In this document: in pieces, positions 7,207 through 61,446 of the stretch
Position numbering within the stretch: position 1 is the stretch's first letter
Layout: the number at the start of each line of letters is the position of its first letter
DNA from: Candidatus Rokuibacteriota bacterium
GTDB lineage: Bacteria; Methylomirabilota; Methylomirabilia; Rokubacteriales; CSP1-6
Length of the DNA stretch: 64,000 bases
Direction: 5' to 3'
Assembly (NCBI GenBank): GCA_003221455.1
Contig: QHRX01000009.1
Span: 10,031 to 74,030 of the forward strand
Notes under the pieces: generated by a model
Told to the model about the DNA's origin: nothing
What the model saw: only the letters and a program-made list of their open reading frames with translations
The model's database searches: none
Translations under genes and position numbers: made by a program

Positions 7207-8658
7207 ATGAGGGCCGGGACGTCCGCGGCTCAGGGCCTCCTGGCGGCGGCGCTCGCGGTGGTCGCCTTCCGCCTCGCCTGGTCGTCGCGAACCTGGCCGC
7301 TGATCCACGACGCCCCCCTCATGCACTACATCGCCTGGCGCATCCAGCACGGCGCCGTCCCGTACCGCGACCTATTCGACATGAACGCGCCCGGCCCCTA
7401 CCTGATCCACCTGCTCGTGCTGCGGACGCTCGGCGGGGGCGACCTGGCCTGGCGGATCTTCGACCTCGGCTGGCTGGCGCTCACCTGCTGGGTGGTGGCG
7501 CTCTACGCGTGGCCGGTCGGCGTCGGCCCCGCGGCGGTCGCCGCCGCGCTCGTCGCCCTCTACCATCTCGCGGGTGGCGTGTGGCTCGCCGGCCAGCGCG
7601 ACTTCCTCCTCTGCGCGTTCCTGATCGGAGGGGCGCAGCTGGTGGCGTCGCCGGCCACCTGGTGGCGCCTGATCCTGGCGGGGGTCGTCGGCGGGGCAGG
7701 GGTCACGCTGAAGCCCCCCGCCCTGATCTTCTTGATCGTGCTCGCGCTGGTGGCGGCCGTCGCGGCGGCGCGCGAGGGCCGGGTCTGGTGGACGCCACCC
7801 CTCGCCGTCCTGGCCGGTGGCGCCGCGGCGCCGCTCGGGTGCCTCGCCTGGCTCGCCTGGACCGGCGGGCTCCGGGCCTTCGTCGAGATCTTCGTCGAGT
7901 ACGACCTCCCGGTCTACTCGCGGCTGGCGCGCGTTTGGCCGTGGACCGCGCTCGGCTGGTGGCCGTTCGGCTGGCGCGTCTGGGCTCTCTTCGCCGTGCT
8001 CGTCCTGGCCGCCGGCGCCACTCGGCGCTGGGACACGCGGCGGGCGCTCGTGCTCGCGGGCCTGGCCTATGGCGTCGTGCACTTCCTGGCGCAGGGCAAG
8101 GGCTGGGAGTACCAGGTCTATCCGCTGGCCACGTTCGCTTGCCTCGGCGCCGGCTTCGCCATGGCGGCCCCCGCCCGCGCGGTGCGGGGGACGGCGCTCC
8201 TGGCCTCCGCGCTCCTCGGCCTCCAGCTCTACGTCAAAGGCGTTCAGGAACTCCGGCCGGCGTGGATCACGGCGAAAGCCCAGCGCGTGGACCGCATCGT
8301 GGCCGACCTGCGGGGTCGCGTCGGGCCGGAGGACACAGTCCAGGTGCTCGACACGGGCGAGGGGGGCGTCCACGCGCTCCTCAGGCTCGGCGTGCGCCAG
8401 CCGACGCGCTTCATCTACGACTTCCCGGTCTTCCACGACGAGGACCGGCCGGTCGTCCGGCGCCTCCGCGCCGAGTTCCTGCGCGAGCTCGAGGCCGCGC
8501 CGCCAAAGTTCATCGTGGTCCTCGAGCGCGGCTGGCCGTCGGGGGACTACGCGCGGATCGCCTGCTTCCCCGCGCTGGCCACCTGGATCGCGGCCACCTA
8601 TCGCCTCGACCGGGAGGGCCCCGAATACCGGGTCTATGCGAAGCGAGCAGATCTTTAG
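7207..8658 (+). CDS. GT-C fold membrane glycosyltransferase (ArnT/PMT/DUF2029-like), polytopic
   Basis: About 11 predicted TM helices. N-terminal periplasmic-loop motif (YRDLFDMNAPGPYL) typical of dolichyl/undecaprenyl-phosphate-sugar-dependent transferases. The ORF finder used an upstream TTG at 7186. Confidence 0.5.
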   Translation: MRAGTSAAQGLLAAALAVVAFRLAWSSRTWPLIHDAPLMHYIAWRIQHGAVPYRDLFDMNAPGPYLIHLLVLRTLGGGDLAWRIFDLGWLALTCWVVALYAWPVGVGPAAVAAALVALYHLAGGVWLAGQRDFLLCAFLIGGAQLVASPATWWRLILAGVVGGAGVTLKPPALIFLIVLALVAAVAAAREGRVWWTPPLAVLAGGAAAPLGCLAWLAWTGGLRAFVEIFVEYDLPVYSRLARVWPWTALGWWPFGWRVWALFAVLVLAAGATRRWDTRRALVLAGLAYGVVHFLAQGKGWEYQVYPLATFACLGAGFAMAAPARAVRGTALLASALLGLQLYVKGVQELRPAWITAKAQRVDRIVADLRGRVGPEDTVQVLDTGEGGVHALLRLGVRQPTRFIYDFPVFHDEDRPVVRRLRAEFLRELEAAPPKFIVVLERGWPSGDYARIACFPALATWIAATYRLDREGPEYRVYAKRADL

Positions 8659-9289
8659 GATCATCCGGGCCTACGACGACCCGGTGGTGCGGGCCTACTG
8701 CTGGCTCCGCTTCGGCATCCTGCGCCAGCGCTTCCTCGACGAGATCGGCCAGTATCTGCCGCCGTCGGGCGAGGTGCTGGACCTCGGCTGCGGCTTCGGA
8801 CTCTTCTCGCTCTACTACGCCTCGATCGCCCCCGGCCGCTTCGTCCGCGGCCTCGACCTGAACGGCCGGCGCATCGCGATGGCCCGTCATGCGGCCGCGC
8901 GCCTGGCGATCGCCAACGTGGCGTACCGCCAGGGCGACGCGCGCGACGTCGGCGGGAGCGGCGAGTACGGTGCCGCCTACATGCTCGACATCGTGCACCA
9001 CGTGCCGGCCGCGAGCGTCGAGCCACTCCTCCGGCGGCTCCATGGCTGCCTCGCCCCTGGGGCGCCGCTCCTGATCAAGGACGTCGATACCCGTCCGGCC
9101 TGGAAGCGCTGGTTCACCTGGACGCTCGACCGCCTGATGGACCCGTGGACGCCGGTCCGCTACTGGCCCGCCGACGAGCTCGAGGCCCTCCTCGAGCGCG
9201 TGGGCTTCCGAGTCCACCGGCACCTGATGGTGGACTTCCTGCCGTACCCCCACGTGCTCTACATCTGCCATCGGGCGGGGGGTCGCTGA
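8636..9289 (+). CDS. class I SAM-dependent methyltransferase
   Basis: Motif I (VLDLGCGFG) and motif post-I/II (PLLIKDVD). Overlaps the 3' end of the GT-C gene by about 23 nt. Confidence 0.7.
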   Translation: MRSEQIFRIIRAYDDPVVRAYCWLRFGILRQRFLDEIGQYLPPSGEVLDLGCGFGLFSLYYASIAPGRFVRGLDLNGRRIAMARHAAARLAIANVAYRQGDARDVGGSGEYGAAYMLDIVHHVPAASVEPLLRRLHGCLAPGAPLLIKDVDTRPAWKRWFTWTLDRLMDPWTPVRYWPADELEALLERVGFRVHRHLMVDFLPYPHVLYICHRAGGR

Positions 9290-9546
9290 GAGGGCGCGGG
9301 TCAACCGCGTCGGCGCCGTCGACACGCCCTCGCGGCGCGCGACCGCGTCGGTGCCGGTCCCGGCGGCCGCATGGTCACGTCGGGCGTGACCGAGGTCTCG
9401 TCGGAAAAAAGGGCGCGAGCGACGGGGACGTGACCCGGGCGGCGAGGACCCTGCGCAGGACGCGGCCGTTCGGTTTGACGACCGGCGCCTCTGGAGTATA
9501 TCGTCACAGCGCCGAGAGCCGCCCGCGGGCTCGAGGAGGACGACTC

Positions 9547-9933
9547 ATGCACACGCTCGTCCGGGCTCAAGGGCTCTCGGAGCCGATCAGCCACTACTCC
9601 GACGCGGTGGTGGCCGGCCGAACGGTCTACGTGTCGGGCCAAGGCGCGTTCGATGCCCGCGGCCGTCTCGTCGGCGCCAACGACGTCGTGGCCCAGACGC
9701 GTCAGGTGCTCGAGAACATGAAGACGGCGCTCGGGGCCGCCGGCGCGACGCTCGACGACGTCGTCAAGGTGACCGTCTACCTCGCTAACCGCGACGACCG
9801 GCCCCGGGTCAACGAGGTGCGGAAGGAATACTTCAGGGCCAACAAGCCTGCCAGCACGCTGATCGAGATCAGTCGCTTCGCGATCGAGGGCATGCTGATC
9901 GAGATCGAGGCGATTGCGGTTCTGCCCTCCTGA
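9547..9933 (+). CDS. RidA/YjgF family reactive-intermediate deaminase
   Basis: 128 aa. YSDAVVAG...VYVSGQ and C-terminal LIEIEAIAV are typical of the YjgF/RidA chorismate-mutase-like fold. Confidence 0.8.
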   Translation: MHTLVRAQGLSEPISHYSDAVVAGRTVYVSGQGAFDARGRLVGANDVVAQTRQVLENMKTALGAAGATLDDVVKVTVYLANRDDRPRVNEVRKEYFRANKPASTLIEISRFAIEGMLIEIEAIAVLPS

Positions 9934-10064
9934 GTCTGGCGCGACCGCCGCAGCGCGGCCGCCGGTCGTGAGCCGGCCTTGACGCTCGGCGCTCGCGGGA
10001 CGTGCATCGCGCTGCGGCCGCGCCGAGGGCCGACCGGCCCCCCGCGCACCCGCGTCCCGCTGGG

Positions 10065-10478
10065 ATGACGACGCCGCTCCGCACGCTTCCTGCGCGTGTC
10101 GTCCGCTGGAGTCGGCTCGCCCGCTGGCTGCGCGCGGCGGATGCGGTCGGGGGCTTCGGCGTGACCTGGGCGGCCGTGCAGGCCTGGGGGCCGGGCGCCG
10201 GGCCGCGGCTCCACGCGCTGCTGGCCCTCGCGGCCGCCGCCGGCGCGGCGTGCGTGCCCTTCGTCCGCCGCCGGTTCCGTCCCGTGAGCGGCCTCGTCGC
10301 TCTGTGGGTGAGCCGCCGCCTCGCGCCCGGCGCCGCGGCCTGGTTCATCCGCCCGGGGGGCGCGGAGCGCGTGCTCGTGACGGGCCGTCGGGGCCTCCGC
10401 CTGGTCATCTTCCCGGTCGGAGCGGACGGCCCGGCGGAGGGGATCGAGGTGCGCCGCACGCGCGTCTTGCTCGTGTAG
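10065..10478 (+). CDS. small membrane protein with bacterial PH (bPH_2/YdbS-like) domain, putative
   Basis: Two N-terminal hydrophobic helices, then VLVTGRRGLRLVIFPV...IEVRR, which resembles the YdbS/YdbT membrane-flanked PH domain. Arg-rich composition makes this uncertain. Confidence 0.35.
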   Translation: MTTPLRTLPARVVRWSRLARWLRAADAVGGFGVTWAAVQAWGPGAGPRLHALLALAAAAGAACVPFVRRRFRPVSGLVALWVSRRLAPGAAAWFIRPGGAERVLVTGRRGLRLVIFPVGADGPAEGIEVRRTRVLLV

Positions 10479-10502
10479 GGCCGGCGAGGCGCGCGGGCCC
10501 GG

Positions 10503-11297
10503 TCACGCCGGCTCGCGGTCGCGGATCGCCTCCTCGATTCGCTGGAAGCGTCGCCGAATCGCCTCGAGACTCTCCTCGTGCGGGATGATGTAGAAGCGGT
10601 TCCGTCGGATCGCGTCGACGACCATGGCGGCGACGGGCTCGGGCGAGAGCGTGCGGCCGATCAGCTCGACCGGCGCCGCCGCGGCCGCGCCCTCGTTCCG
10701 GAGCGCGGGCGGCCGGCCGCGCTCGCTGTCGCGGATGCGGGTGGCGACGCCCATCGGGCAGAGGACCGAGACGCCGATCCCGTACGGGCGCAGATCCTTC
10801 ACCAGGGTCTCGGAGAGCCCGACCACCGCGTACTTGGACGTGTTGTAGACGCCGAGCCCCTGGCTCGCGATGAGCCCCGCCATCGAGGCCGTGTTGACGA
10901 CGTGCCCCTCGCTCTGCTGGGCGATCATCCGCGGCACGAAGGCCTCGACCCCGTGGATCACGCCCCAGAGGTTGACGCCGAGGACCCAGCGCCAGTCGCG
11001 GTGCGTGGCCGCCTCGAGCCCGCCCCACAGCGCGACGCCGGCGTTGTTGCAGACCACGTGCACGGCGCCGTAGGCGGCCCAGGCCCGGTCGGCCAGGGCC
11101 AGGACCTCCCGGCGTTCGCTCACGTCCGTGCGCACGGCGACTCCGTCGAGCCCGTCGATCGTCTGGGCAAGGCCCGCCTCGTCCACGTCGGCGGCCACGA
11201 TCCGCATCCCGGCCTGCGCGAGCGCGCGGGCGAGGGCGCGCCCGATACCGCTCGCCGCGCCGGTGACGACGGCCACCCTGCCCGCCAGCTCCCTCAC
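10503..11297 (-). CDS. short-chain dehydrogenase/reductase (SDR)
   Basis: TGAASGIGRA cofactor motif, NNAG, and catalytic YxxxK (YNTSKYAVVGL). Confidence 0.85.
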   Translation of the reverse strand: MRELAGRVAVVTGAASGIGRALARALAQAGMRIVAADVDEAGLAQTIDGLDGVAVRTDVSERREVLALADRAWAAYGAVHVVCNNAGVALWGGLEAATHRDWRWVLGVNLWGVIHGVEAFVPRMIAQQSEGHVVNTASMAGLIASQGLGVYNTSKYAVVGLSETLVKDLRPYGIGVSVLCPMGVATRIRDSERGRPPALRNEGAAAAAPVELIGRTLSPEPVAAMVVDAIRRNRFYIIPHEESLEAIRRRFQRIEEAIRDREPA

Positions 11298-12265
11298 GGG
11301 TGGAGGATGACCTTACCGTAGCTCTCGCGCGCAGCGATGGCGGCGAGGGCCTGCGCGGCCTGCGCGAGCGGAAACGTCTTCCAGACGACGGGACGGAGCA
11401 TGCCGCGCTCGACCAGGGCCAGGAGGTCCGCCATCCACCGGTCCACGAGCGGCGAGCCGCGCTCTTGATAGAGGCCCCAGTGCACGCCAACGACGCTGAT
11501 GTTCTTCAGCAAGATCCGGTTCGCGGCGATCTCCGGGATTCGGCCGCCGGCGAAGCCGATCACGAGCAACCGGCCCTCGAAGGCGATGCACTTGCTCGAG
11601 CCGTCGAAGACGTCGCCTCCGACGGGGTCGTAGATGACGTCGGCACCGCCCCCGGTCACCTCCTTCACGCGCGCGACCCAATCCTCGGTGCGGTAGTTGA
11701 CGAGTACGTCGGCGCCAGCCTGGCGGGCCACGTCGAGCTTCTCGGCGGTGCCCGCCGTCGCGATGACGCGCGCGCCCAGCGCGTGGCCGATCTGCACGGC
11801 GGCGAGCCCGACACCGCCAGCGGCGCCGTGCACGAGGAGCCACTCGCCGGCCCGGAGCCCGGCGCGATGCACGAGGGCGCACCAGGAGGTCTGGTACACG
11901 AGGCCGAACGCCGCACCGTCGTCGAAGCCGAGCGCGGCCGGCAGCCGGTAGACGCGGCGCTCGGGCACGGCGACGGCCTCCGCGTACCCGCCCCACCCCA
12001 TGAGCGCGAACACCCGGTCGCCGGGCGCGAAGCGCCGGGCGTTCGGCCCGCAGGCGCGCACGACCCCGGCCACCTCCACGCCCGGGCTGAACGGCAGCGG
12101 CGGCTTCTTCTGGTACTTGCCCTGCACGATCAGGATGTCCGGGAAGTTGCAGCCGATGGCCTTCACGTCGATCAGCACGTCGCCGGGGGCGGGCGTGGGC
12201 GGGGGCACGTCGGCGTATTCGAGCTCCGTCGGGTCGCCCCAGCGGGTGGCGAGCATGGCTTTCAT
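11294..12265 (-). CDS. NADPH:quinone oxidoreductase / zinc-independent MDR-family oxidoreductase
   Basis: Qor-like sequence (GVNFPDILIVQGKY, LVHGAAGGVGLAAVQIG). Start taken at MKAML. 4-nt overlap with the SDR gene. Confidence 0.85.
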   Translation of the reverse strand: MKAMLATRWGDPTELEYADVPPPTPAPGDVLIDVKAIGCNFPDILIVQGKYQKKPPLPFSPGVEVAGVVRACGPNARRFAPGDRVFALMGWGGYAEAVAVPERRVYRLPAALGFDDGAAFGLVYQTSWCALVHRAGLRAGEWLLVHGAAGGVGLAAVQIGHALGARVIATAGTAEKLDVARQAGADVLVNYRTEDWVARVKEVTGGGADVIYDPVGGDVFDGSSKCIAFEGRLLVIGFAGGRIPEIAANRILLKNISVVGVHWGLYQERGSPLVDRWMADLLALVERGMLRPVVWKTFPLAQAAQALAAIAARESYGKVILHP

Positions 12266-54266: not shown

Positions 54267-55136
54267 CTACAGGTGGTGGAGCTTCGGGTCGAGCTCGTCG
54301 CGCAGCCAGTCGCCCACCAAGTTGAAGGCCAGGACCACGAGGAGGATGGCGAGGCCGGGGAAGAACGAGACCCACCAGGCGCTCGCGACGTAGTCGCGTC
54401 CCTCCGCGATCATCGAGCCCCACGCCGGCGTCGGCGGCGGGATGCCCGCCCCCAGGAAGGAGAGCGACGCCTCCACGATGATGACGTAGCCGATCTGGAG
54501 GCTCAGAAGCACGAGCAGCGAGGGCAGGGTATTGGGCAGCAGGTGCACGAGGATGATGCGGCGGTCCGAGCAGCCGGTGAGGCGCGCCTGGGCGATAAAG
54601 TCGCGCTCCATCAACGCCAGCACCTCGCCGTAGACGACCCGCGCGTACCGGGCCCACAGGATGGCGCCGATTGCGATCACGACGTTGACGAAGCTCGGCC
54701 CCGCCGTCACCGCCAAGACCAGCGCGAGCAGGATGACGGGCAGGGCGAGCGTGGCGTCCGTCAGCCGCATGAGCAGGCTCCCGATCCGGCCGCGGTAATA
54801 GCCGGCCAGGAGGCCGACGGCGGCGCCGACCAGCCCCGCCAGCAGCACGGTCACGACGCCCGCCGTCAGCGACACGCGGGCACCGAAGATGATGCGCGAG
54901 AGGAGGTCGCGCCCGAGGCGGTCGGTGCCGAGCGGGTGCGCCCAGGAGCCGTCGGCCGCCCAGACCGGCGGGGCGAGCCGGGCGCGGAGCGACTGCGCGT
55001 AGGGGTCGGCAGGGCTCAGGCGGCCCGCCGCCAGGGCGAGGAGCACGAAGGCCGCGATGATCATGACGGGAATCACCGGCATCCGCCGGAACAGGGAGCT
55101 ACGACGCCAGGCCGATTCGGGGGTCGATGACGGCAT
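54267..55136 (-). CDS. ABC transporter permease (DppC/OppC-like)
   Basis: EAA loop region and 6 TM helices. Real start may be the internal Met (MPVIPV). Confidence 0.85.
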   Translation of the reverse strand: MPSSTPESAWRRSSLFRRMPVIPVMIIAAFVLLALAAGRLSPADPYAQSLRARLAPPVWAADGSWAHPLGTDRLGRDLLSRIIFGARVSLTAGVVTVLLAGLVGAAVGLLAGYYRGRIGSLLMRLTDATLALPVILLALVLAVTAGPSFVNVVIAIGAILWARYARVVYGEVLALMERDFIAQARLTGCSDRRIILVHLLPNTLPSLLVLLSLQIGYVIIVEASLSFLGAGIPPPTPAWGSMIAEGRDYVASAWWVSFFPGLAILLVVLAFNLVGDWLRDELDPKLHHL

Positions 55137-56019
55137 AGAGCAGGTCGACGGCGAAGTTCACGGTCACCACGATGGCAGCGGTCACGAGCACGACGGCCTG
55201 GATGACCGGAAAGTCGCGTCCGGTGATCGCCTCGTAGGCGAGCCGGCCCATGCCCGGCCAGGCGAAGACGGTCTCCACGACGATCGCGCTCGTCACCAGG
55301 ATCGCGAAGTAGACGCCGGCGAACGTGACGACCGGGATCAGCGCGTTCCTGAGCGCGTGGCGCCAGACCACCGACACTTCCGACGCGCCCTTGGCGCGGG
55401 CGGTCGTGACGTACTCCGCGTCGAGGACCTCGAGCATCGCGGAGCGGAGCAGGCGCATGAGCCCGGCGACGACGAACCAGCCAAGGGTGAAACCCGGCAG
55501 GATGTAGTGGGCGAGGCTCCCGCTGCCCCCCGCCGGCAGCCACTGGAGGCGGCCGGCCACGACCTCGATCAGCACGATGCCGACCCAGAACGTCGGGAGC
55601 GACTGACCGAGGGTCGCGAGGACCTTGGCGCCGGAGTCGAGCGCGGTTCCCCTCCGTACCGCCGCCAGCACGCCGAGGGGGAACGCGATGAGCAGGCTCA
55701 CGGCCATCGAGAACGCGGCGAGGGCGAGCGAGTTCGGGAGCCGCTCTCGCAGGAGCTCGACGACCGGCCGGCGGGAGCGGATCGACGTGCCGAAGTCCCC
55801 CGTGGCCGCCCGCCCGACAAAGGTCACGTACTGGGCGTAAAGCGGGCGATCGAGGCCGAGGTACCGGCGCGCGTTGGCGAAGTCCTCCTCGGTGGCGACC
55901 ATCGGCAGGACCAAGGTGAGCGGGTCGCCGGTGGCGCGGGCGAGCCCGAAGATCACGACCGAGAACAGGAGGAGGGTGATCGCCGACTGGCTCAGGCGTG
56001 CCAGCACGAAGCGGAGCAT
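55099..56019 (-). CDS. ABC transporter permease (DppB/OppB-like)
   Basis: 306 aa, N-terminal MLRFVLARL. Typical DppB. Start at ATG 56019 inside a longer ORF. Confidence 0.85.
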   Translation of the reverse strand: MLRFVLARLSQSAITLLLFSVVIFGLARATGDPLTLVLPMVATEEDFANARRYLGLDRPLYAQYVTFVGRAATGDFGTSIRSRRPVVELLRERLPNSLALAAFSMAVSLLIAFPLGVLAAVRRGTALDSGAKVLATLGQSLPTFWVGIVLIEVVAGRLQWLPAGGSGSLAHYILPGFTLGWFVVAGLMRLLRSAMLEVLDAEYVTTARAKGASEVSVVWRHALRNALIPVVTFAGVYFAILVTSAIVVETVFAWPGMGRLAYEAITGRDFPVIQAVVLVTAAIVVTVNFAVDLLYAVIDPRIGLAS

Positions 56020-56023
56020 CCGG

Positions 56024-57586
56024 TCAGCGCTCGGCCACCAGCCCGTCGATGTTGAGGTCGAGCATGACGGAGCCCGGGTCCCAGCGGCTGATCCGCTTCG
56101 AGGTGACGTAGGGGGTATGCAGGTAGACGAGGGGGATCCCGTCGTGGTCGCGCCGGAGCCGCGCGAAGGCCTGCCGCATGAGCTCGTTGATCTTCGTGCG
56201 ATCGGTGGTGGTGAGGATCGCGTCAAGCATCCGGTCGATCTCGGGATCGGCGACCGTGTCCGTGGGGCGGGAGGGCGTGTGGGCGAACTTGTCGAGGAGC
56301 GTGTAGGTGCCGATCCAGTCGCGGTTCGGGAGGTTGTAGTAGCCGACGGCGCCGGGCGCCGTCCGGTCCACCCACTGCTTGCGGAAGGCGGGGTAGTCGA
56401 CGGGGACCAGCGTCGGCCGCACGCCGATCTTCTGCCAGTAGCCCGCCAACGCCTCCGCCATCTCCCTGCCCTCGGGCAGGGCCGGGAGCTGGTAAGCGAA
56501 GATGGTGATCGGGAAGCCGTCCCGATAGCCGGCCTCGGCGAGGAGGGCGCGGGCGCGGGCGGGATCGAAGGGGTACCGCCACTCATCGGGCACTGTGAGC
56601 TTGACGTCACGGAACGCCCAGGTGAGCCCGAACGGAATCGCCGCCGGTTCGGCCTTGCCGCCGAAGATGGTGGCCGCGATCTCGCGGCGGTCGATGGCGA
56701 GGTTCAGGGCCTCGCGGACGCGCCGGTCCCGGACCGGCGTCCGGTCCCAGGGGAGAATCCACCAGAGGTGGAGGAGCGAGTCGTTGTCGCGGTAGCGGAC
56801 GGGGAAGCCGGCCTGCTCCATCTCCCGGACCCGATCGCGGCTCACGTCGGCGATATCGACCTCGCCGCGTCGGACCATGGCCATGCGCGTCGACTCCTCG
56901 GGAATGACCCGGAAGGTCACCGTCTGGTACCGGGGCGTGCCGATCCGCCAGTGGTGCGGCACCGCCGCCAGCCGGACGTGCGAACCGGTGACCTGCTCCA
57001 CGAAGCGATAGGGGCCACTGCCGATCGGCTTCCGGGCGAACTCGTCGTCGCCGACCGACTCGATGTACCGCTTGGGCAGGATCATCCCCTCGGTCGCGAG
57101 CGCGCGCGAGAGATACGGCGGGATGACCAGCGTCGGCTCCCGCGTGACGATCACGACGCGGTCGGGGGCGGGCGTCTCGATCCGGTCGAGGAGGGCGCGG
57201 AGGACGCCCGCGTAGCCTGTGGTCGAGCGCGGTCCGATGGCGCGGAGAATGCTGAACCTGACGTCGGCCGATGTGAGCGGGTCGCCGTTGTGGAAGTGCA
57301 CGTCGCGCCGGAGCGTGAACGTCCAGCGCCGGTGGTCGGGCGAGACCTCCCACGCCGTTGCGATGCCGAGCTCCGGGCTCAACCGGCCGTCGGGGGTGAC
57401 GCCGATCAGGTAGTCGAACATCAGCGCCAGGTAGAACTTCACGCCGTGCCCGCCGAGGGCGGGATCAAGCACCTCGTTGGCGAAGCTCGAGAGCGCCACC
57501 GTGAGTTCTCCCGCCGGTGGGGCCGCGGCCCCCGTGGCCTCTGTCGCGGTGAGGAGGAGCAGCAGGAGCGCCGTGGTCGCGCGCAT
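56024..57586 (-). CDS. ABC transporter substrate-binding protein, family 5 (peptide/nickel/opine type)
   Basis: Signal peptide (LLLLLLTATEATGAAA) plus family-5 SBP body. The start ATG shares its A with the upstream gene's stop (TGATG). Confidence 0.85.
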   Translation of the reverse strand: MRATTALLLLLLTATEATGAAAPPAGELTVALSSFANEVLDPALGGHGVKFYLALMFDYLIGVTPDGRLSPELGIATAWEVSPDHRRWTFTLRRDVHFHNGDPLTSADVRFSILRAIGPRSTTGYAGVLRALLDRIETPAPDRVVIVTREPTLVIPPYLSRALATEGMILPKRYIESVGDDEFARKPIGSGPYRFVEQVTGSHVRLAAVPHHWRIGTPRYQTVTFRVIPEESTRMAMVRRGEVDIADVSRDRVREMEQAGFPVRYRDNDSLLHLWWILPWDRTPVRDRRVREALNLAIDRREIAATIFGGKAEPAAIPFGLTWAFRDVKLTVPDEWRYPFDPARARALLAEAGYRDGFPITIFAYQLPALPEGREMAEALAGYWQKIGVRPTLVPVDYPAFRKQWVDRTAPGAVGYYNLPNRDWIGTYTLLDKFAHTPSRPTDTVADPEIDRMLDAILTTTDRTKINELMRQAFARLRRDHDGIPLVYLHTPYVTSKRISRWDPGSVMLDLNIDGLVAER

Positions 57587-59256
57587 CAATCCTCGACGGG
57601 CATCGTGACTGGCTCGCCCGCGCCGTAGAAGTACGCCCCCCGCCCGGCGGCGCCGCCGACGACGGCGATCTCGAAGCAGTCGGGTGTCTCGACGACGGGC
57701 AGCGGGAGGTCTGGGTGATCGGCGAGCCAGCCGAGCTCGGGGTGGGCGGCCTGGAGCGCCTTCGGCTCCTTGTTCAGCATGAGCGTCCGGAACGGCAGGC
57801 GCGCCGTCTTGTAGAGGGCCTGCTGGATCCGGGCCCGGTCCCACCCCTCGCCGGCGAAGATCTGCGCGTGCTCAGGGCAGACGAAGAGCGTGTTGTGCTC
57901 GCGCTCCTCGGTCTTGTAGCGCGGGTCCGCGCGCCGGCCGATCAGCCAGAGCGCCGTCCCCACCTGGGCGACGTTGGTGGCCGCCGTCGCGAAGACCTGG
58001 ATCAGGTCCTCGGGGCGCGTGCTCCTGAAGTCGTGTAGCTCGCAGATCCCGTAGACGAAGTGGACGGTCACCGTGCTGGCCTCGCGGGCGTAGCCGCGGG
58101 CCACGTGGTAGGGCTCCCACGGGCTCTGGGCCTCGTTCTCCGCGCACGCCAGGCTGTACTTGAGCGGGGAGCCGATCGTGTCCATGTCGGAGACGCCGAC
58201 GTAGGTGTGGCCCACGTTCATCATCGTGAGGCGGACCGCCCGGCCGAGGACGGTGTTGGACGCCGACGGGGCGCCCGGCCCGAGCGCGCACATCCCGGCG
58301 TTGAGGTTCGCCGCCCGCCCCTTCGGCCCGTTGACGAGGACGAGCGGGGCGTGGGGCCCCGTCGACATCGCCTTGTTGCGCAGGTACATCTTCGGCTCCG
58401 CGAGGCAGCGGACCGCGGCGACGAGGAGCGGCAGGTGCTCGGGCCCGCCGCCGGCCATCACGGCGTTGATCGCGAGCTTCTCGACCGTGGCGACGCCGAA
58501 CCCGGGCTCGAGTGTCGCGATGACCTCGCCGGGATCGCGGGCGCTGCCGCGCAGCATGGCCTCGACGGCGCGGCCGGTCGGCGCCACCAGCGGGAAGCCG
58601 TCGCTCCAGCCCCGCGCGAGGAAGTCCCGGTTCATGCGACTCCACGCGTCGAGCAGGTCAGGCCCGTCGTAGGTGAGCCGTTCCTCCACGGCGGGACGAC
58701 CGACGTCGGCGCACGCCTCGACGGGGCGGGTGAGCCCGGCGACCACCTGATCAAACGCCTCCGTCACCATGCGGTGGATGTCCTCGGGGCGCCGGTTCGT
58801 CAGGGGCGTCGGCACCACCGCGAGCGGCAGGCCGGCGAGCCCGAAACTCTGTGCGCTCCGCCGCGCGTCCTGGACGAAGGCCTCGGCGGTGATGATCACG
58901 GTCGGGACCCCCCGTCGCTCGAGCTCGACCATGTCGTGGACACCCCACGACGTGCACGACCCTCAGTCGTTGGTGGTGCCGACGACGGCGTCGACCTCTG
59001 CCGCGATGCGGTCGGCGTCCTCCGCGGTGCAGTGCCGCATGAGCCAGCCGACCGAGCCCGTGTAGCGCTTGAACCTGGCGCCGGGAAAGCGCTCCCGGAG
59101 GAGCTGCTCGGTGCGATCGAGCGCGGCGTCGCCGCCCGCCTTCATGTTCCAGTAGAGGCCAATCGTCGCATGGCCGAGGTCGCGGAGCCGCGGCGCGGGC
59201 TTCACCGATTGCTCGACGACGTTCGCGACGGGACTCAGGATCTCGAGGCTCGCCAT
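57586..59256 (-). CDS. candidate selenoprotein with UGSC motif (in-frame TGA at 58965-58963 read as Sec), fused to a large C-terminal uncharacterised domain
   Basis: ORFs 58963..59256 and 57586..58932 are in the same frame, separated only by a TGA. The joined reading gives ...VVGTTND-U-GSC-TSWGVHDMVELERRGVPTVII..., placing U inside a U-G-S-C motif. A 7-bp-stem hairpin begins 12 nt 3' of the TGA. The alternative is two separate genes with ATG at 58932. Confidence 0.5.
58933..58951 (-). promoter_or_regulatory. candidate bacterial SECIS hairpin downstream of in-frame UGA
   Basis: GTCGTGG-GGTGT-CCACGAC perfect 7-bp stem with a G/U-rich 5-nt loop. It starts 12 nt after the TGA at 58965-58963. Confidence 0.4.
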
Positions 59257-59350
59257 CTCCGCACCTCCTCGGGGTGACCGGCCGGCTCACCTCCCCGCCC
59301 GCGGGCCGGTGGCGCGAGGATGGGCCGTCGGAGGGCGTCGCGTCAAGTCC

Positions 59351-59383
59351 TTGGGAAGGCCTTTGGGAAGGCCTTGGGAAGGC
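59351..59383. repeat. three tandem copies of TTGGGAAGGC (CCTTCCCAA on minus strand) in an intergenic region
   Basis: Units at 59351-60, 59363-72 and 59374-83. They lie in the 300-bp gap between pcp and the selenoprotein gene start, upstream of the latter on the minus strand. Confidence 0.7.
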
Positions 59384-59557
59384 GTTGCTGTCGGTCCAGA
59401 CGACGGTCACGGCTCACTTGCTCGGTGAACATGTCACCCCGTGAGCGACCCGCCCCGCGTCTGGGTTGACACGGGAGGCGGCGAGAAGGGGTGCCTGCCG
59501 AGCGAGGAATCGAGACTCCGCACGGGCGCCCGCGTCGGGAGGCTCGGTGAGAGGTGT

Positions 59558-60265
59558 CTAGGCGGTGGGCCTGGAGGAGCTCGCCGGGGGCCGGGGGCGC
59601 TCTTCGAGCGAGACCTCGAGGATGATCCGGGCGGCTTCGACCATGGTCCCGAGGCTCATCGAGGCGAGGGCGTGAGGCGCGTACGGCTCGGCGCTCTTCC
59701 CGGCCCGCACCTCCTCGCAGAGCCGCGCGACCTGCTCGGCGAGGTAGGGCAGGTGCACGAAGCCGCTCGGGACGCCCGCCGCCTGCTCGGCCTGGAGCAC
59801 CGTGTACATGGTGGCGTTGCAGAGGAAGGTGCCCGCCGTGGTCGAGAGGCGGGCGGGGATCCCGGCTCGAAGCAGCGCCTGCTCGATCGCCCGGAGCGGC
59901 AAGGTCGCGGGGAGGGCGGTGAGCCCCTCGGGAACGACCACGTCGTCGGCGAGGCGCGCACCCTCGTTGTCGGGGATGGTGAAGTCGGCGATGTTGACGG
60001 CGACGCGCTCGAGACGGATCACGGGCTCGCCCGGGCAGAGGCCGAGGCTCACCACGGCGACCGGACCGGTCTCCTGCAGCAGATCGTGGATCCGGCGCCG
60101 CAGGGGACCGAAGGTGACGGGGAGGATCCGGCCGACCACCCGGCGGCCCAGGATCTCCGCGCCGTCGAGCTGCTTCACGACCTCGGCCGAGGGGTTACGG
60201 TCGAGGCCGCCGTAGGGCTCGAACCCGGTGAGGAGCGCGACCCTGGGCACCGTGGTCCGGCTCAA
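59558..60265 (-). CDS. pcp: pyroglutamyl-peptidase I (peptidase C15)
   Basis: LLTGFEPYGG N-terminus and catalytic Cys region (AGTFLCNATMY). Confidence 0.85.
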   Translation of the reverse strand: MSRTTVPRVALLTGFEPYGGLDRNPSAEVVKQLDGAEILGRRVVGRILPVTFGPLRRRIHDLLQETGPVAVVSLGLCPGEPVIRLERVAVNIADFTIPDNEGARLADDVVVPEGLTALPATLPLRAIEQALLRAGIPARLSTTAGTFLCNATMYTVLQAEQAAGVPSGFVHLPYLAEQVARLCEEVRAGKSAEPYAPHALASMSLGTMVEAARIILEVSLEERPRPPASSSRPTA

Positions 60266-60392
60266 CGCATCCAGAAAGTCGGGGCGGGACCGCGGGGCGC
60301 CCGGAGGAGCCCGCTCGAGGCTCTGCGCCCGTCGCTCACGTCCTGCCCGCTGGTGCGCTCCATCGGTCGCGCCTCCTTCGTTAGGGTCGGGC

Positions 60393-61446
60393 TCAGGGAA
60401 TTCGGACCGCGCCTTCCATCAGCCGCCGGGCGGTGCGGTAGACCGTCACGCGCGTGGCCACTGGTCCCGGGCCGACCTCGGCCGCGATCGGGAGCACCCC
60501 CGACGGATGGCCGAGGCGGAGGTCGCGCGCGGCCGGGCCGGCGACCTCGTGGACCACCGTGCCCTCGATGCGCGCGGCGACGGCGAGGCACATCGCCGCC
60601 GTCAGCGCGACGGCCCGGTGGCACGCGCCCAGCGAGATGACGCGGGCGATCAGGTCCGCCTGGGTCGCGTCGTAGCGCGCGCGGTCGAGCGCCGTGAAGG
60701 GTGCGGGCGGCGCCACCAGCACGATCTTCGGCACGGCCGCGCTCCCCGGGATCCCCATGAGCCCGGCGGCGGCGGTCCGGATCCGCTCGAGGCGCCCGCC
60801 GAGCGCCCGGTCCGCGTCGATGTCGGTGGGCGACTCGGTGCCGGTCAGTCCGACGTCCTTGGCCCGCACGAACACGACCGGGTTCGTCGCGTCGACGCTC
60901 GAGGCCTCGACCCCCTCGATCAGGTCGCGCGCCGCCGGGGTCGACGAAGTCGAGGGCGATCCGCGCGCCCGTCCCGGCGACGCCCGGCAGCTCGAAGTCG
61001 CCCTCGACCGCGGCCTCGCCGTCGCGGACGGGCACGCGGGCGATGAGGAGCTTCTGCGTATTCGTGTTGTGAATGCGGACCACCGTCGCGGGCTCGACGG
61101 CGGGCACGAGGTGCTCGTCGATCGCGAACGGGCCGACGGCCGCCGAGCAGTTGCCGCAGTTGCCCGTGTAGTCGACGACGGGGCGACCCACCTCCACCTG
61201 GGCGAACGTGAAGTCGACGTCCGCGTCCGGGCGAGCCGGCGGGCCGACGATACAGGCCTTCGAGAGCGACGAGATGCCGCCGCCGAGGCCGTCGAGCTGG
61301 CGGCCGTAGGGATCGGGGCTCCCGAGGGCTCGCAGCAGGACGGCGTCCCGCTCCGGGCCGCGGGGGGGCAGGTCGCGCTCGTGGAAGAAGAGGGCGCGGC
61401 TCGTGCCGCCGCGCATGTAGACCGCCCGGATCTTCCGCTGGCTCAC
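60393..61446 (-). pseudogene. prpF: prpF-like 2-methylaconitate isomerase (PrpF/AcnD-accessory family), reading frame disrupted
   Basis: N-terminal part (VSQRKIRAVYMRGGTSRALFF...ALDFVDPGGA) is in one frame. The C-terminal part (DLIEGVEASSVDATNPVVFVRAKDV...RTARRLMEGAVRIP) is in another. The switch occurs within a GCGCGCG run near 60921-60936. The alternative is a sequencing indel in an intact gene. GTGA overlap with the upstream aconitase gene. Confidence 0.6.

What the first reader, a model, noticed from the sequence alone, without database searches (positions are those of the whole stretch)
57586..59256. In-frame UGA inside a D-U-G-S-C motif joins two ORFs into a candidate selenoprotein, with a SECIS-like hairpin 12 nt downstream
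The ORF finder reports two minus-strand ORFs, 58963..59256 (97 aa) and 57586..58932 (448 aa). They are in the same frame and separated by a single TGA and 10 sense codons. Reading through the TGA gives ...AEVDAVVGTTND-U-GSCTSWGVHD-MVELERRGVPTVIITAEAF..., so the stop would be a selenocysteine inside a UGSC redox motif. A family named for this motif exists in protein databases, to my recollection. A perfect 7-bp hairpin (GTCGTGG GGTGT CCACGAC, 58951..58933) starts 12 nt 3' of the UGA. Its G/U-containing apical loop fits the geometry of bacterial SECIS elements. The joined gene continues into a roughly 440-aa Cys-rich domain of unknown function. Its stop overlaps (TGATG) the start of a peptide-type ABC transporter binding-protein gene. 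If real, this is an unannotated selenoprotein heading a transport operon.
Basis: seen in the sequence. Interest (0 to 1): 0.8.

Follow-up and report, generated by a model that had tools for sequence, protein, structure and literature searches.

The report
Split-annotated UGSC-family selenoprotein fusion gene
The two ORFs are one gene for a selenocysteine-containing protein of the known but functionally uncharacterised UGSC family, fused to a large uncharacterised domain; gene callers cut it in two because they read the selenocysteine UGA as a stop.

Summary
The ORFs 59256..58963 and 58932..57586 (minus strand) form one 556-codon gene with one in-frame TGA (58965..58963). The Pfam UGSC domain runs straight across that TGA. 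Among 76 related genomic loci, about 68, from Methylomirabilota/Rokubacteria, Chloroflexota, Nitrospinota, Tectomicrobia, Desulfobacteraceae and Betaproteobacteria, keep TGA at exactly this codon. Cultured Paraburkholderia, Xanthobacter, Aquabacter and Phytohabitans have TGC (CGSC) in a single uninterrupted ORF. The 7-bp hairpin lies 11 nt after the UGA. Its synonymous codon positions are almost frozen in 56 Sec forms and free in the Cys forms, which marks an RNA element, a SECIS. There is little true covariation.

Corrections: the downstream part is not Cys-rich. It is the second half of the UGSC domain plus a ~360-aa domain with no Pfam family, no NCBIfam family and no PDB fold match. The transporter neighbourhood holds only in the closest relatives. 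The family has been known since 2007-2008, so this is a new, mis-annotated member of a known kind. A useful by-product: the UGSC domain and this C-domain occur fused, or as adjacent genes in either order, in bacteria and haloarchaea. The UGSC Sec loop also weakly resembles GrdB/PrdB reductase selenoproteins.

The parts
57586..59256 (-). Single 556-codon gene (plus stop) for a UGSC-domain / C-domain fusion selenoprotein. Start ATG 59256..59254; the stop TGA 57588..57586 is a genuine stop.
   Evidence: Translation. tblastn of the joined protein covers residues 1-556 in most of 76 loci. Cys homologues are single ORFs of 560-580 aa. The N-terminal 97 codons show the same excess of synonymous over non-synonymous changes as the rest of the gene.
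59264..59270 (-). Shine-Dalgarno-like GAGGAGG, 7 nt upstream of the ATG at 59256.
   Evidence: Read directly from the sequence. Most relatives have GGAGG-type motifs at the same place.
58963..58965 (-). In-frame UGA = selenocysteine codon 98, first residue of the U-G-S-C motif.
   Evidence: TGA sits at the aligned codon in about 68 of 76 genomic loci from several phyla and in 80 of 80 loci of a standalone UGSC clade. It is TGC in Paraburkholderia, Xanthobacter, Aquabacter, Phytohabitans and Natrinema.
58933..58951 (-). SECIS-type hairpin: 5' arm 58951..58945 (GUCGUGG), loop 58944..58940 (GGUGU), 3' arm 58939..58933 (CCACGAC). It lies 11 nt after the UGA and encodes T-S-W-G-V-H-D.
   Evidence: The stem is paired in 98.2% of cells across 55 distinct sequences. 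Codons 101-103 and 107-108 have the lowest synonymous entropy of the whole gene. Cys forms use ACC/ACT and TCC, which breaks the stem. There is one compensatory U-A to G-C change, in L063.
58729..59244 (-). UGSC domain (residues 5-176), a flavodoxin/Rossmann-like alpha/beta fold with U98-x-x-C101 at a strand-to-helix junction.
57589..58674 (-). C-terminal domain of ~362 aa (residues 195-556), with no family assignment and no solved structural relative.
56024..57586 (-). SBP_bac_5 solute-binding protein gene whose ATG overlaps the selenoprotein stop (TGATG). It is followed by two permease genes (55099..56019 and 54267..55082).
   Evidence: Called genes and their Pfam families on the 99.9% identical contig L077.

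Best explanation
One gene (59256..57586, minus strand) encodes a 556-residue selenoprotein. UGA codon 98 is most likely recoded to selenocysteine by SelB and Sec-tRNA(Sec), recruited by the 19-nt hairpin that begins 11 nt downstream. The same mRNA's terminal UGA, which has no such hairpin, stops translation. The protein has two parts. The N-terminal part is a UGSC-family domain, an alpha/beta flavodoxin-like fold with a U98-G-S-C101 redox motif at the start of a helix. The C-terminal part is a ~360-residue domain of unknown fold and function. Shown here: single-gene status, the Sec/Cys pairing, RNA-level constraint on the hairpin, and the obligate partnership of the two domains (fused, or adjacent genes in either order). 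Inferred: the C-domain binds a small substrate, probably a carboxylic acid or related catabolic intermediate. Also inferred: the Sec/Cys pair of the UGSC domain supplies nucleophilic or reductive chemistry through a selenenylsulfide cycle. That would be analogous to, and possibly distantly homologous with, the Sec-containing B proteins of the glycine, sarcosine, betaine and proline reductases.
For: The domain is continuous across the TGA. TGA is conserved at the aligned codon in about 68 of 76 loci from at least 6 phyla, and Cys (TGC) forms are single ORFs in cultured bacteria. RefSeq names the 562-aa Xanthobacter homologue 'UGSC family (seleno)protein'. All 120 closest database proteins start at Met109, so the same mis-call is made everywhere. 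Of 104 conserved 4/6-fold codon columns, the two lowest synonymous entropies are codons 102 and 103. Of 29 2/3-fold columns, the three lowest are 101, 107 and 108. The lowest of 447 sliding windows starts at codon 101. The third base of codon 106 is C in 53 of 55 sequences although the amino acid varies. Cys forms break the stem. The N-terminal ORF is under purifying selection. A selD homologue lies next to the gene in L039. Methylomirabilota MAGs are reported to have very large selenoproteomes (PMC13188914). Domain partnership: UGSC and the C-domain are fused here. They are separate genes in the order UGSC then C in Betaproteobacteria and haloarchaea. They are in the order C then UGSC in a soil clade, in 47 of 51 loci. 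GrdB-like similarity: 14 of 18 UGSC domains weakly hit TIGR01917 around its Sec region.
Against: No selA, selB, selC or selD lies in the 64-kb window, and the rest of the source genome could not be searched. Rfam has no match. The hairpin's energy is not exceptional for this GC content, and covariation is a single event. The support is therefore conservation, not compensatory change. The functional model is weak. The GrdB hits are far below family cut-offs (at most 20.5 bits against 602). No GrdE/PrdA-like partner was detected. The gene neighbourhood varies. The family's best-conserved C-domain cysteine (NAVMAGC) is Gly in this protein.
Confidence: 0.9

Rival explanations
1. The UGA is recoded SECIS- and SelB-dependently, but as cysteine through a tRNA(ReC)-type tRNA. 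The product would then be a CGSC protein rather than a selenoprotein.
For: Such tRNAs occur in a fraction of Sec-using genomes and decode UGA followed by a SECIS as Cys (Vargas-Rodriguez 2018, as discussed in PMC13582414). Nothing in the window tells which tRNA is used.
Against: tRNA(ReC) is reported in a minority of genomes and alongside canonical tRNA-Sec. Strict maintenance of TGA across phyla, when a one-step change to TGC gives Cys directly, argues that Sec itself is selected.
Confidence: 0.05
2. These are two separate genes, or a gene broken by a nonsense mutation: a 97-aa product and a 448-aa product starting at Met 58932, with the TGA acting as a real stop.
For: Every public gene call for the close relatives starts at that Met, and the 97-aa ORF is called separately. 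In some lineages UGSC and the C-domain really are separate genes.
Against: The break falls inside the UGSC domain, between a beta-strand and the helix that carries the redox motif, and not at the domain border near residue 180 where the true split forms are cut. TGA, not any stop, is at exactly the Cys-aligned codon in about 68 loci. A random nonsense mutation would not be conserved from 31% to 98% identity.
Confidence: 0.02
3. The hairpin is a by-product of the conserved peptide T-S-W-x-x-H-D and local codon bias. Sec insertion, if it occurs, would use another signal.
For: Five of the seven stem pairs involve first or second codon positions fixed by conserved residues. There is only one compensatory change, and the fold energy equals that of shuffles.
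Against: The free third positions that form the pairs ACG:GAC, TCG:CAC and TGG:NNC are fixed in Sec forms. Thr codons elsewhere in the same gene prefer ACC. Cys forms with the same peptide use ACC/ACT and TCC.
Confidence: 0.04

Closest known systems
UGSC-containing selenoprotein family (Pfam PF24696; NCBIfam NF041046; prototype Hyphomonas neptunium ABI76733.1; Zhang & Gladyshev 2007/2008)
   Same: The same domain is matched end to end, with the U/C-G-S-C motif at the same position. It shows Sec/Cys pairing and an in-frame UGA followed by a hairpin, and its function is unknown.
   Different: Typical family members are ~150-210 aa stand-alone proteins. This one carries a ~360-aa C-terminal domain and scores below the NF041046 equivalog cut-off (111.6 against 125 bits).
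'UGSC/Unknown_1' fusion reported from Global Ocean Sampling reads (PMC2398784, Fig. S1A)
   Same: It is a UGSC domain fused to a conserved domain of unknown function that also exists on its own.
   Different: I could not establish identity of Unknown_1 with this C-domain. The figure is an image, and the stored supplementary sequences do not contain the motifs I searched for.
Selenoprotein B of the glycine/sarcosine/betaine reductases and D-proline reductase (GrdB, GrdF, GrdH, PrdB)
   Same: These have a UxxC motif. The local sequence similarity is centred on the Sec: 14 of 18 UGSC domains hit TIGR01917 positions ~332-372. Each also works with a separate substrate-binding partner polypeptide.
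   Different: The scores are far below family thresholds. The overall length and the partner differ, and no pyruvoyl proprotein of the GrdE/PrdA type was detected. The lineages here are aerobic or soil organisms rather than Stickland fermenters.
Bacterial SECIS elements, with E. coli fdhF/fdnG as the paradigm
   Same: A hairpin lies inside the coding sequence immediately 3' of the UGA, with an 11-nt spacer to the upper stem and a G/U-containing apical loop. The comparison with E. coli rests on my own knowledge of the literature.
   Different: The stem is a short perfect 7-bp one with a 5-nt loop and no bulged U. The loop sequence varies (GGUGU, AGUAU, CUUGU and others). No SelB binding data exist.

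Membership tests
UGSC family (Pfam PF24696) | Domain match above the gathering score over the whole profile. | tested here: met
   133.4 bits against a cut-off of 25, residues 5-176 on profile positions 1-171 of 172, spanning the TGA.
UGSC family (seleno)protein, NCBIfam NF041046 (equivalog) | Whole-protein score at or above the curated cut-off of 125 bits. | tested here: not met
   111.6 bits for the full protein and 115.4 bits for the domain alone. RefSeq nevertheless gives this name to the 55%-identical 562-aa Xanthobacter homologue.
UGSC family | U/C-G-S-C motif at the conserved position, with Sec/Cys alternation among homologues. | tested here: met
   D-U-G-S-C here. The codon is TGA in about 68 loci and TGC in L040, L041, L042 (both copies), L045, L046 and Natrinema.
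Bacterial SelB-dependent selenoprotein gene | In-frame UGA conserved under purifying selection on both sides. | tested here: met
Bacterial SelB-dependent selenoprotein gene | SECIS stem-loop immediately downstream of the UGA, under RNA-level constraint. | tested here: met
   Synonymous entropy reaches its minimum over codons 101-108, and the stem is 98.2% paired. The constraint is lost in Cys forms. Covariation is only a single event.
Bacterial SelB-dependent selenoprotein gene | selA, selB, selC and selD present in the same genome. | not testable with these tools
   None of them is in the 64-kb window or in most flanks. The indirect evidence is a selD next to the gene in L039 and published selenoproteomes of Methylomirabilota.
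Bacterial SelB-dependent selenoprotein gene | Selenium actually incorporated at the UGA position. | not testable with these tools
   This needs 75Se labelling or mass spectrometry.
GrdB/PrdB reductase selenoprotein B | Full-length match to TIGR01917, TIGR01918 or TIGR04483 above their cut-offs. | tested here: not met
   At most 20.5 bits against cut-offs of 602, 65 and 300. There is only a ~40-residue local match around the Sec.
GrdB/PrdB reductase selenoprotein B | A pyruvoyl-forming partner proprotein (GrdE/PrdA). | tested here: not met
   The fused C-domain gave no NCBIfam or Pfam hit. The candidate conserved Cys is Gly here.
Thioredoxin-fold oxidoreductases (suggested for UGSC in PMC2398784) | A thioredoxin-like fold around the UxxC motif. 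| tested here: not met

The most novel reading that the evidence does not exclude
[quoted passage not shown] Its catalytic partner would be the ~360-residue C-domain seen here, a domain without Pfam family or solved structural relative. The pair would perform GrdB/PrdB-like reductive chemistry on small imported carboxylic or amino acids in aerobic soil and water bacteria and in haloarchaea.
Probability: 0.3. Interest if true: 0.65.

Novelty: new member of a known kind. Interest (0 to 1): 0.38.

Why it matters
For annotation, this gene and at least 120 close relatives in public databases are called as a truncated 448-aa 'hypothetical protein' plus a 97-aa fragment. The same happens in a cultured Acidovorax plasmid. 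Recognising the Sec codon restores a 556-aa protein. For biology, the UGSC family has been known for almost 20 years with no function. The consistent fusion or adjacency with one particular unannotated domain, and the weak link to GrdB/PrdB, give a concrete hypothesis. They also point to cultured, genetically tractable Cys-form hosts (Paraburkholderia caffeinilytica, Xanthobacter) and a Sec-form host (Acidovorax sp. T1) in which to test it.

Tried and rejected
- **Rfam:** a scan of the window at gathering thresholds gave no match.
- **tRNA-Sec:** ARAGORN found none in the window or in 39 loci.
- **Single-sequence folding:** the hairpin region folds no better than shuffles, so it cannot support the SECIS on its own.
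- **Covariation:** only one compensatory pair was found. The argument was therefore moved to synonymous-site conservation.
- the joined protein could not be handed to the search of protein representatives, so the 448-aa ORF was used instead. The afdb50 fold library was not available.
- **2008 'Unknown_1' alignment:** it is held only as an image, and the stored supplementary sequences lack the motifs. Identity with this C-domain is therefore open.
- **Conserved operon:** the ABC transporter is shared only with the nearest relatives. All-against-all clustering of flanking ORFs found no universal neighbour. Recurrent but not universal neighbours are the CoA-transferase III family (21 Rokubacteria loci), SDR, MmgE/PrpD, TcuA-like flavoproteins, TctC/MFS/SBP_bac_5 transport proteins and DUF6282.
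- **Other read-through candidates:** a scan of the window found no other convincing in-frame TGA gene.
- **Sec machinery by similarity:** E. coli SelA, SelB and SelD searched against the window and all loci gave only selD in L039 and a doubtful GTPase hit in L036.
- **Metagenome scan:** a broad alignment of stand-alone UGSC proteins was too diverse to scan with. The narrower one reached only one soil clade, so the generality of the UGSC/C-domain pairing across the whole family is not established.
Full report
**1. The observation**

The minus strand carries ORFs 58963..59256 (97 aa) and 57586..58932 (448 aa). They are in one frame. The only interruption is TGA at 58965..58963, followed by ten sense codons (GSCTSWGVHD) and the ATG at 58932. 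Read through, the product is 556 residues with ...TTND-U-GSC-TSWGVHDM...

The hairpin is exactly as described. Its arms are GTCGTGG (58951..58945) and CCACGAC (58939..58933), with the loop GGTGT between them, and an 11-nt spacer follows the UGA. A GAGGAGG Shine-Dalgarno motif sits 7 nt before the ATG at 59256.

The gene's own stop is also TGA (57588..57586). It overlaps the ATG of an SBP_bac_5 gene. UGA is therefore used in two ways in one mRNA, which excludes a general reassignment of UGA.

Taken alone, the hairpin is only mildly unusual. 0.8% of the window's TGA triplets have a perfect 7-bp hairpin in the same position. The local folding energy equals that of shuffled sequence.

**2. One gene, not two**

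Pfam PF24696 (UGSC) matches residues 5-176 over its whole profile (E 1e-38), so the TGA lies in the middle of a domain. NCBIfam NF041046 matches too, at 111.6 bits, just under its cut-off of 125.

A scan of one genome per species returned 76 loci in which tblastn follows the joined protein from residue 1 to about 556. The codon aligned with U98 is TGA in about 68 of them. These come from Methylomirabilota/Rokubacteria, Chloroflexota/Dehalococcoidia, Nitrospinota, Tectomicrobia, a Desulfobacteraceae MAG, Binatia and Betaproteobacteria.

The codon is TGC, giving C-G-S-C in one uninterrupted ORF, in four cultured genera: Paraburkholderia caffeinilytica, Aquabacter, Phytohabitans suffuscus (two copies) and two Xanthobacter strains. 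RefSeq names the Xanthobacter protein 'UGSC family (seleno)protein'.

The N-terminal 97 codons accumulate synonymous changes in the same proportion as the rest of the gene. All 120 nearest database proteins are about 448 aa and begin at Met109, so gene callers make the same truncation everywhere.

**3. The hairpin as a SECIS**

Across 55 distinct Sec-form sequences (31-98% protein identity), the seven stem pairs are formed in 98.2% of cells. Only one change is compensatory (U-A to G-C in L063) and three are G-U variants. Classical covariation is therefore weak.

The decisive signal is at synonymous sites. Among 104 conserved four- or six-fold degenerate codon columns, the two with the lowest synonymous entropy are codon 102 (ACG in 53 of 55) and codon 103 (TCG in 56 of 56). 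Among 29 two- or three-fold columns, the three lowest are codons 101, 107 and 108. The lowest of 447 eight-codon windows starts at codon 101.

The third base of codon 106 pairs with the G of the Trp codon. It is C in 53 of 55 sequences although the amino acid varies. In the six Cys-form genes the same peptide is written ACC/ACT-TCC..., and the stem is lost.

As I recall the E. coli fdhF literature, an 11-nt spacer before a short upper stem-loop is the geometry of the minimal E. coli SECIS.

**4. Sec machinery**

The window has no tRNA gene, no Rfam match, and no SelA, SelB or SelD homologue. The indirect support is:
- A selD homologue (59% identical to E. coli SelD) lies directly downstream of the orthologue in L039.
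- A 2026 review reports a Methylomirabilota MAG with 63 predicted selenoproteins (PMC13188914).
- Sec-type hydrogenases are reported from the same phylum (PMC13582414).

That last paper also recalls tRNA(ReC), which can insert Cys at a UGA followed by a SECIS. This remains a minor rival.

**5. The protein**

The family is nevertheless large. The 448-aa ORF query, which holds the second half of the UGSC domain as well as the C-domain, matches 4436 50%-identity clusters at E <= 1e-3. They fall into these architectures:
- ~445 aa: Sec forms truncated by gene callers.
- 550-580 aa: full-length forms; the 17 I read carry Cys or another residue at the U position.
- 340-370 aa: the C-domain on its own.
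- ~715-740 aa: matched in two stretches.

The region is not Cys-rich. The one widely conserved cysteine (NAVMAGC, present in 66 of 72 members) is Gly in this protein.

**6. The two domains belong together**

Besides the fusion, several split arrangements occur:
- Betaproteobacterial MAGs have a ~175-aa Sec-UGSC gene followed by a separate C-domain gene.
- Haloarchaeal megaplasmids have the same order with Cys, annotated 'UGSC family (seleno)protein' plus 'hypothetical protein'.
- A soil clade has the opposite order, with the C-domain gene first. Here 80 of 80 loci have TGA, and 47 of the 51 loci with enough upstream sequence have the C-domain gene directly upstream.

This was sampled from loci chosen through the C-domain, or from one UGSC clade. 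It is not shown for the whole UGSC family.

**7. Likely function**

Fourteen of 18 UGSC domains give weak hits, always in the same region, to glycine reductase selenoprotein B. The best E-value is 1.8e-4, at profile positions ~332-372, which by my recollection is near the GrdB Sec. They also hit the sarcosine, betaine and proline reductase B proteins. These scores are far below family thresholds, so this is a lead and not a membership.

Neighbourhoods vary, but they recurrently hold transport and organic-acid catabolism genes:
- In this window: SBP_bac_5 plus two permeases downstream, and citrate-synthase-like, aconitase, PrpF and Peptidase_C15 genes upstream.
- In 21 Rokubacteria loci: a CoA-transferase III gene immediately upstream.
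- Elsewhere: MmgE/PrpD, TcuA/TcuB-like, MFS, TctC, SDR and DUF6282 genes.

My working model is that the C-domain binds a small acid substrate and that the U98/C101 pair of the UGSC domain acts as nucleophile or reductant through a selenenylsulfide. I hold this model at about 0.3-0.5 confidence.

**8. What is known, and the verdict**

UGSC-containing selenoproteins were described in 2007-2008 and remain of unknown function. [quoted passage not shown] A 'UGSC/Unknown_1' fusion was noted at that time. I could not verify that Unknown_1 is this C-domain.

The finding is therefore real and correctly interpreted, but it is a new, mis-annotated member of a known family. Its extra value lies in the unannotated partner domain and in the testable GrdB-like hypothesis.

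Noticed in passing
window 59345..59387: An 11-nt unit (AAGGCCTTGGG on the + strand, CCTTCCCAAGG-like on the gene strand) is repeated 3.8 times in the 300-nt gap upstream of the selenoprotein gene, just before a TTGACG. It is not present upstream of the orthologues in other species. It could be a regulator-binding array or simple slippage.
   Followed up: partly
window ~60923..60938 (PrpF-like gene, 60405..61446, minus strand): Compared with the 99.9% identical ENA contig L077, the window differs by a 16-nt indel inside the PrpF-like gene. The protein then aligns in two pieces in different frames. Another sample (L078) also calls this region differently. This is either a real frameshift variant or an assembly difference.
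   Followed up: partly
window 54267..57586: The ABC system after the selenoprotein gene has a binding protein and two permeases but no ATPase genes. The next genes are on the opposite strand.
   Followed up: no
window 58447..58449 (residue 270): The most conserved cysteine of the C-domain family (motif NAVMAGC, Cys in 66 of 72 members) is glycine in this protein. It is Gly or Ala in a few other Sec forms (L008, L015, L022, L024, L054/55/57/59).
   Followed up: partly
L039 10690..11022: A selD (selenophosphate synthetase) homologue, 59% identical to E. coli SelD over 111 residues, starts about 480 nt downstream of the orthologous selenoprotein gene and runs off the contig end.
   Followed up: partly
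L084 (Acidovorax sp. T1 plasmid p2-T1, NZ_CP021650.1) 7992..9497: A cultured strain carries the Sec form (TGA at 8280 with the same ACGTCGTGG-AGTGT-CCACGAC hairpin) on a conjugative IncP plasmid. It lies next to IS1071 and IS91-family transposases, an isocitrate lyase/PEP mutase family gene, a FAD oxidoreductase and a TctC gene. Only the 97-aa N-terminal piece is listed, as 'hypothetical protein'.
   Followed up: partly
L053 7177, 10280, 16771; L056 2840, 12248; L043 3582; L049 10286; L052 2420: Several genomes carry two or three UGSC-type Sec genes within 10 kb. L053 has three fused Sec paralogues. L049 and L052 have a stand-alone Sec-UGSC gene immediately upstream of the fused one.
   Followed up: partly
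L083 (Natrinema caseinilyticum plasmid) 7968..11379; L063 8542..9723: A DUF6282 family gene sits next to the UGSC/C-domain pair both in a haloarchaeal megaplasmid and in a Chloroflexi MAG (35% identity between the two). This hints at a third conserved partner in some lineages.
   Followed up: partly
window 60265..60363: A 33-codon ORF between the PrpF-like and Peptidase_C15 genes is called as a gene on three independent contigs and is 100% conserved with the window. It has no family.
   Followed up: no
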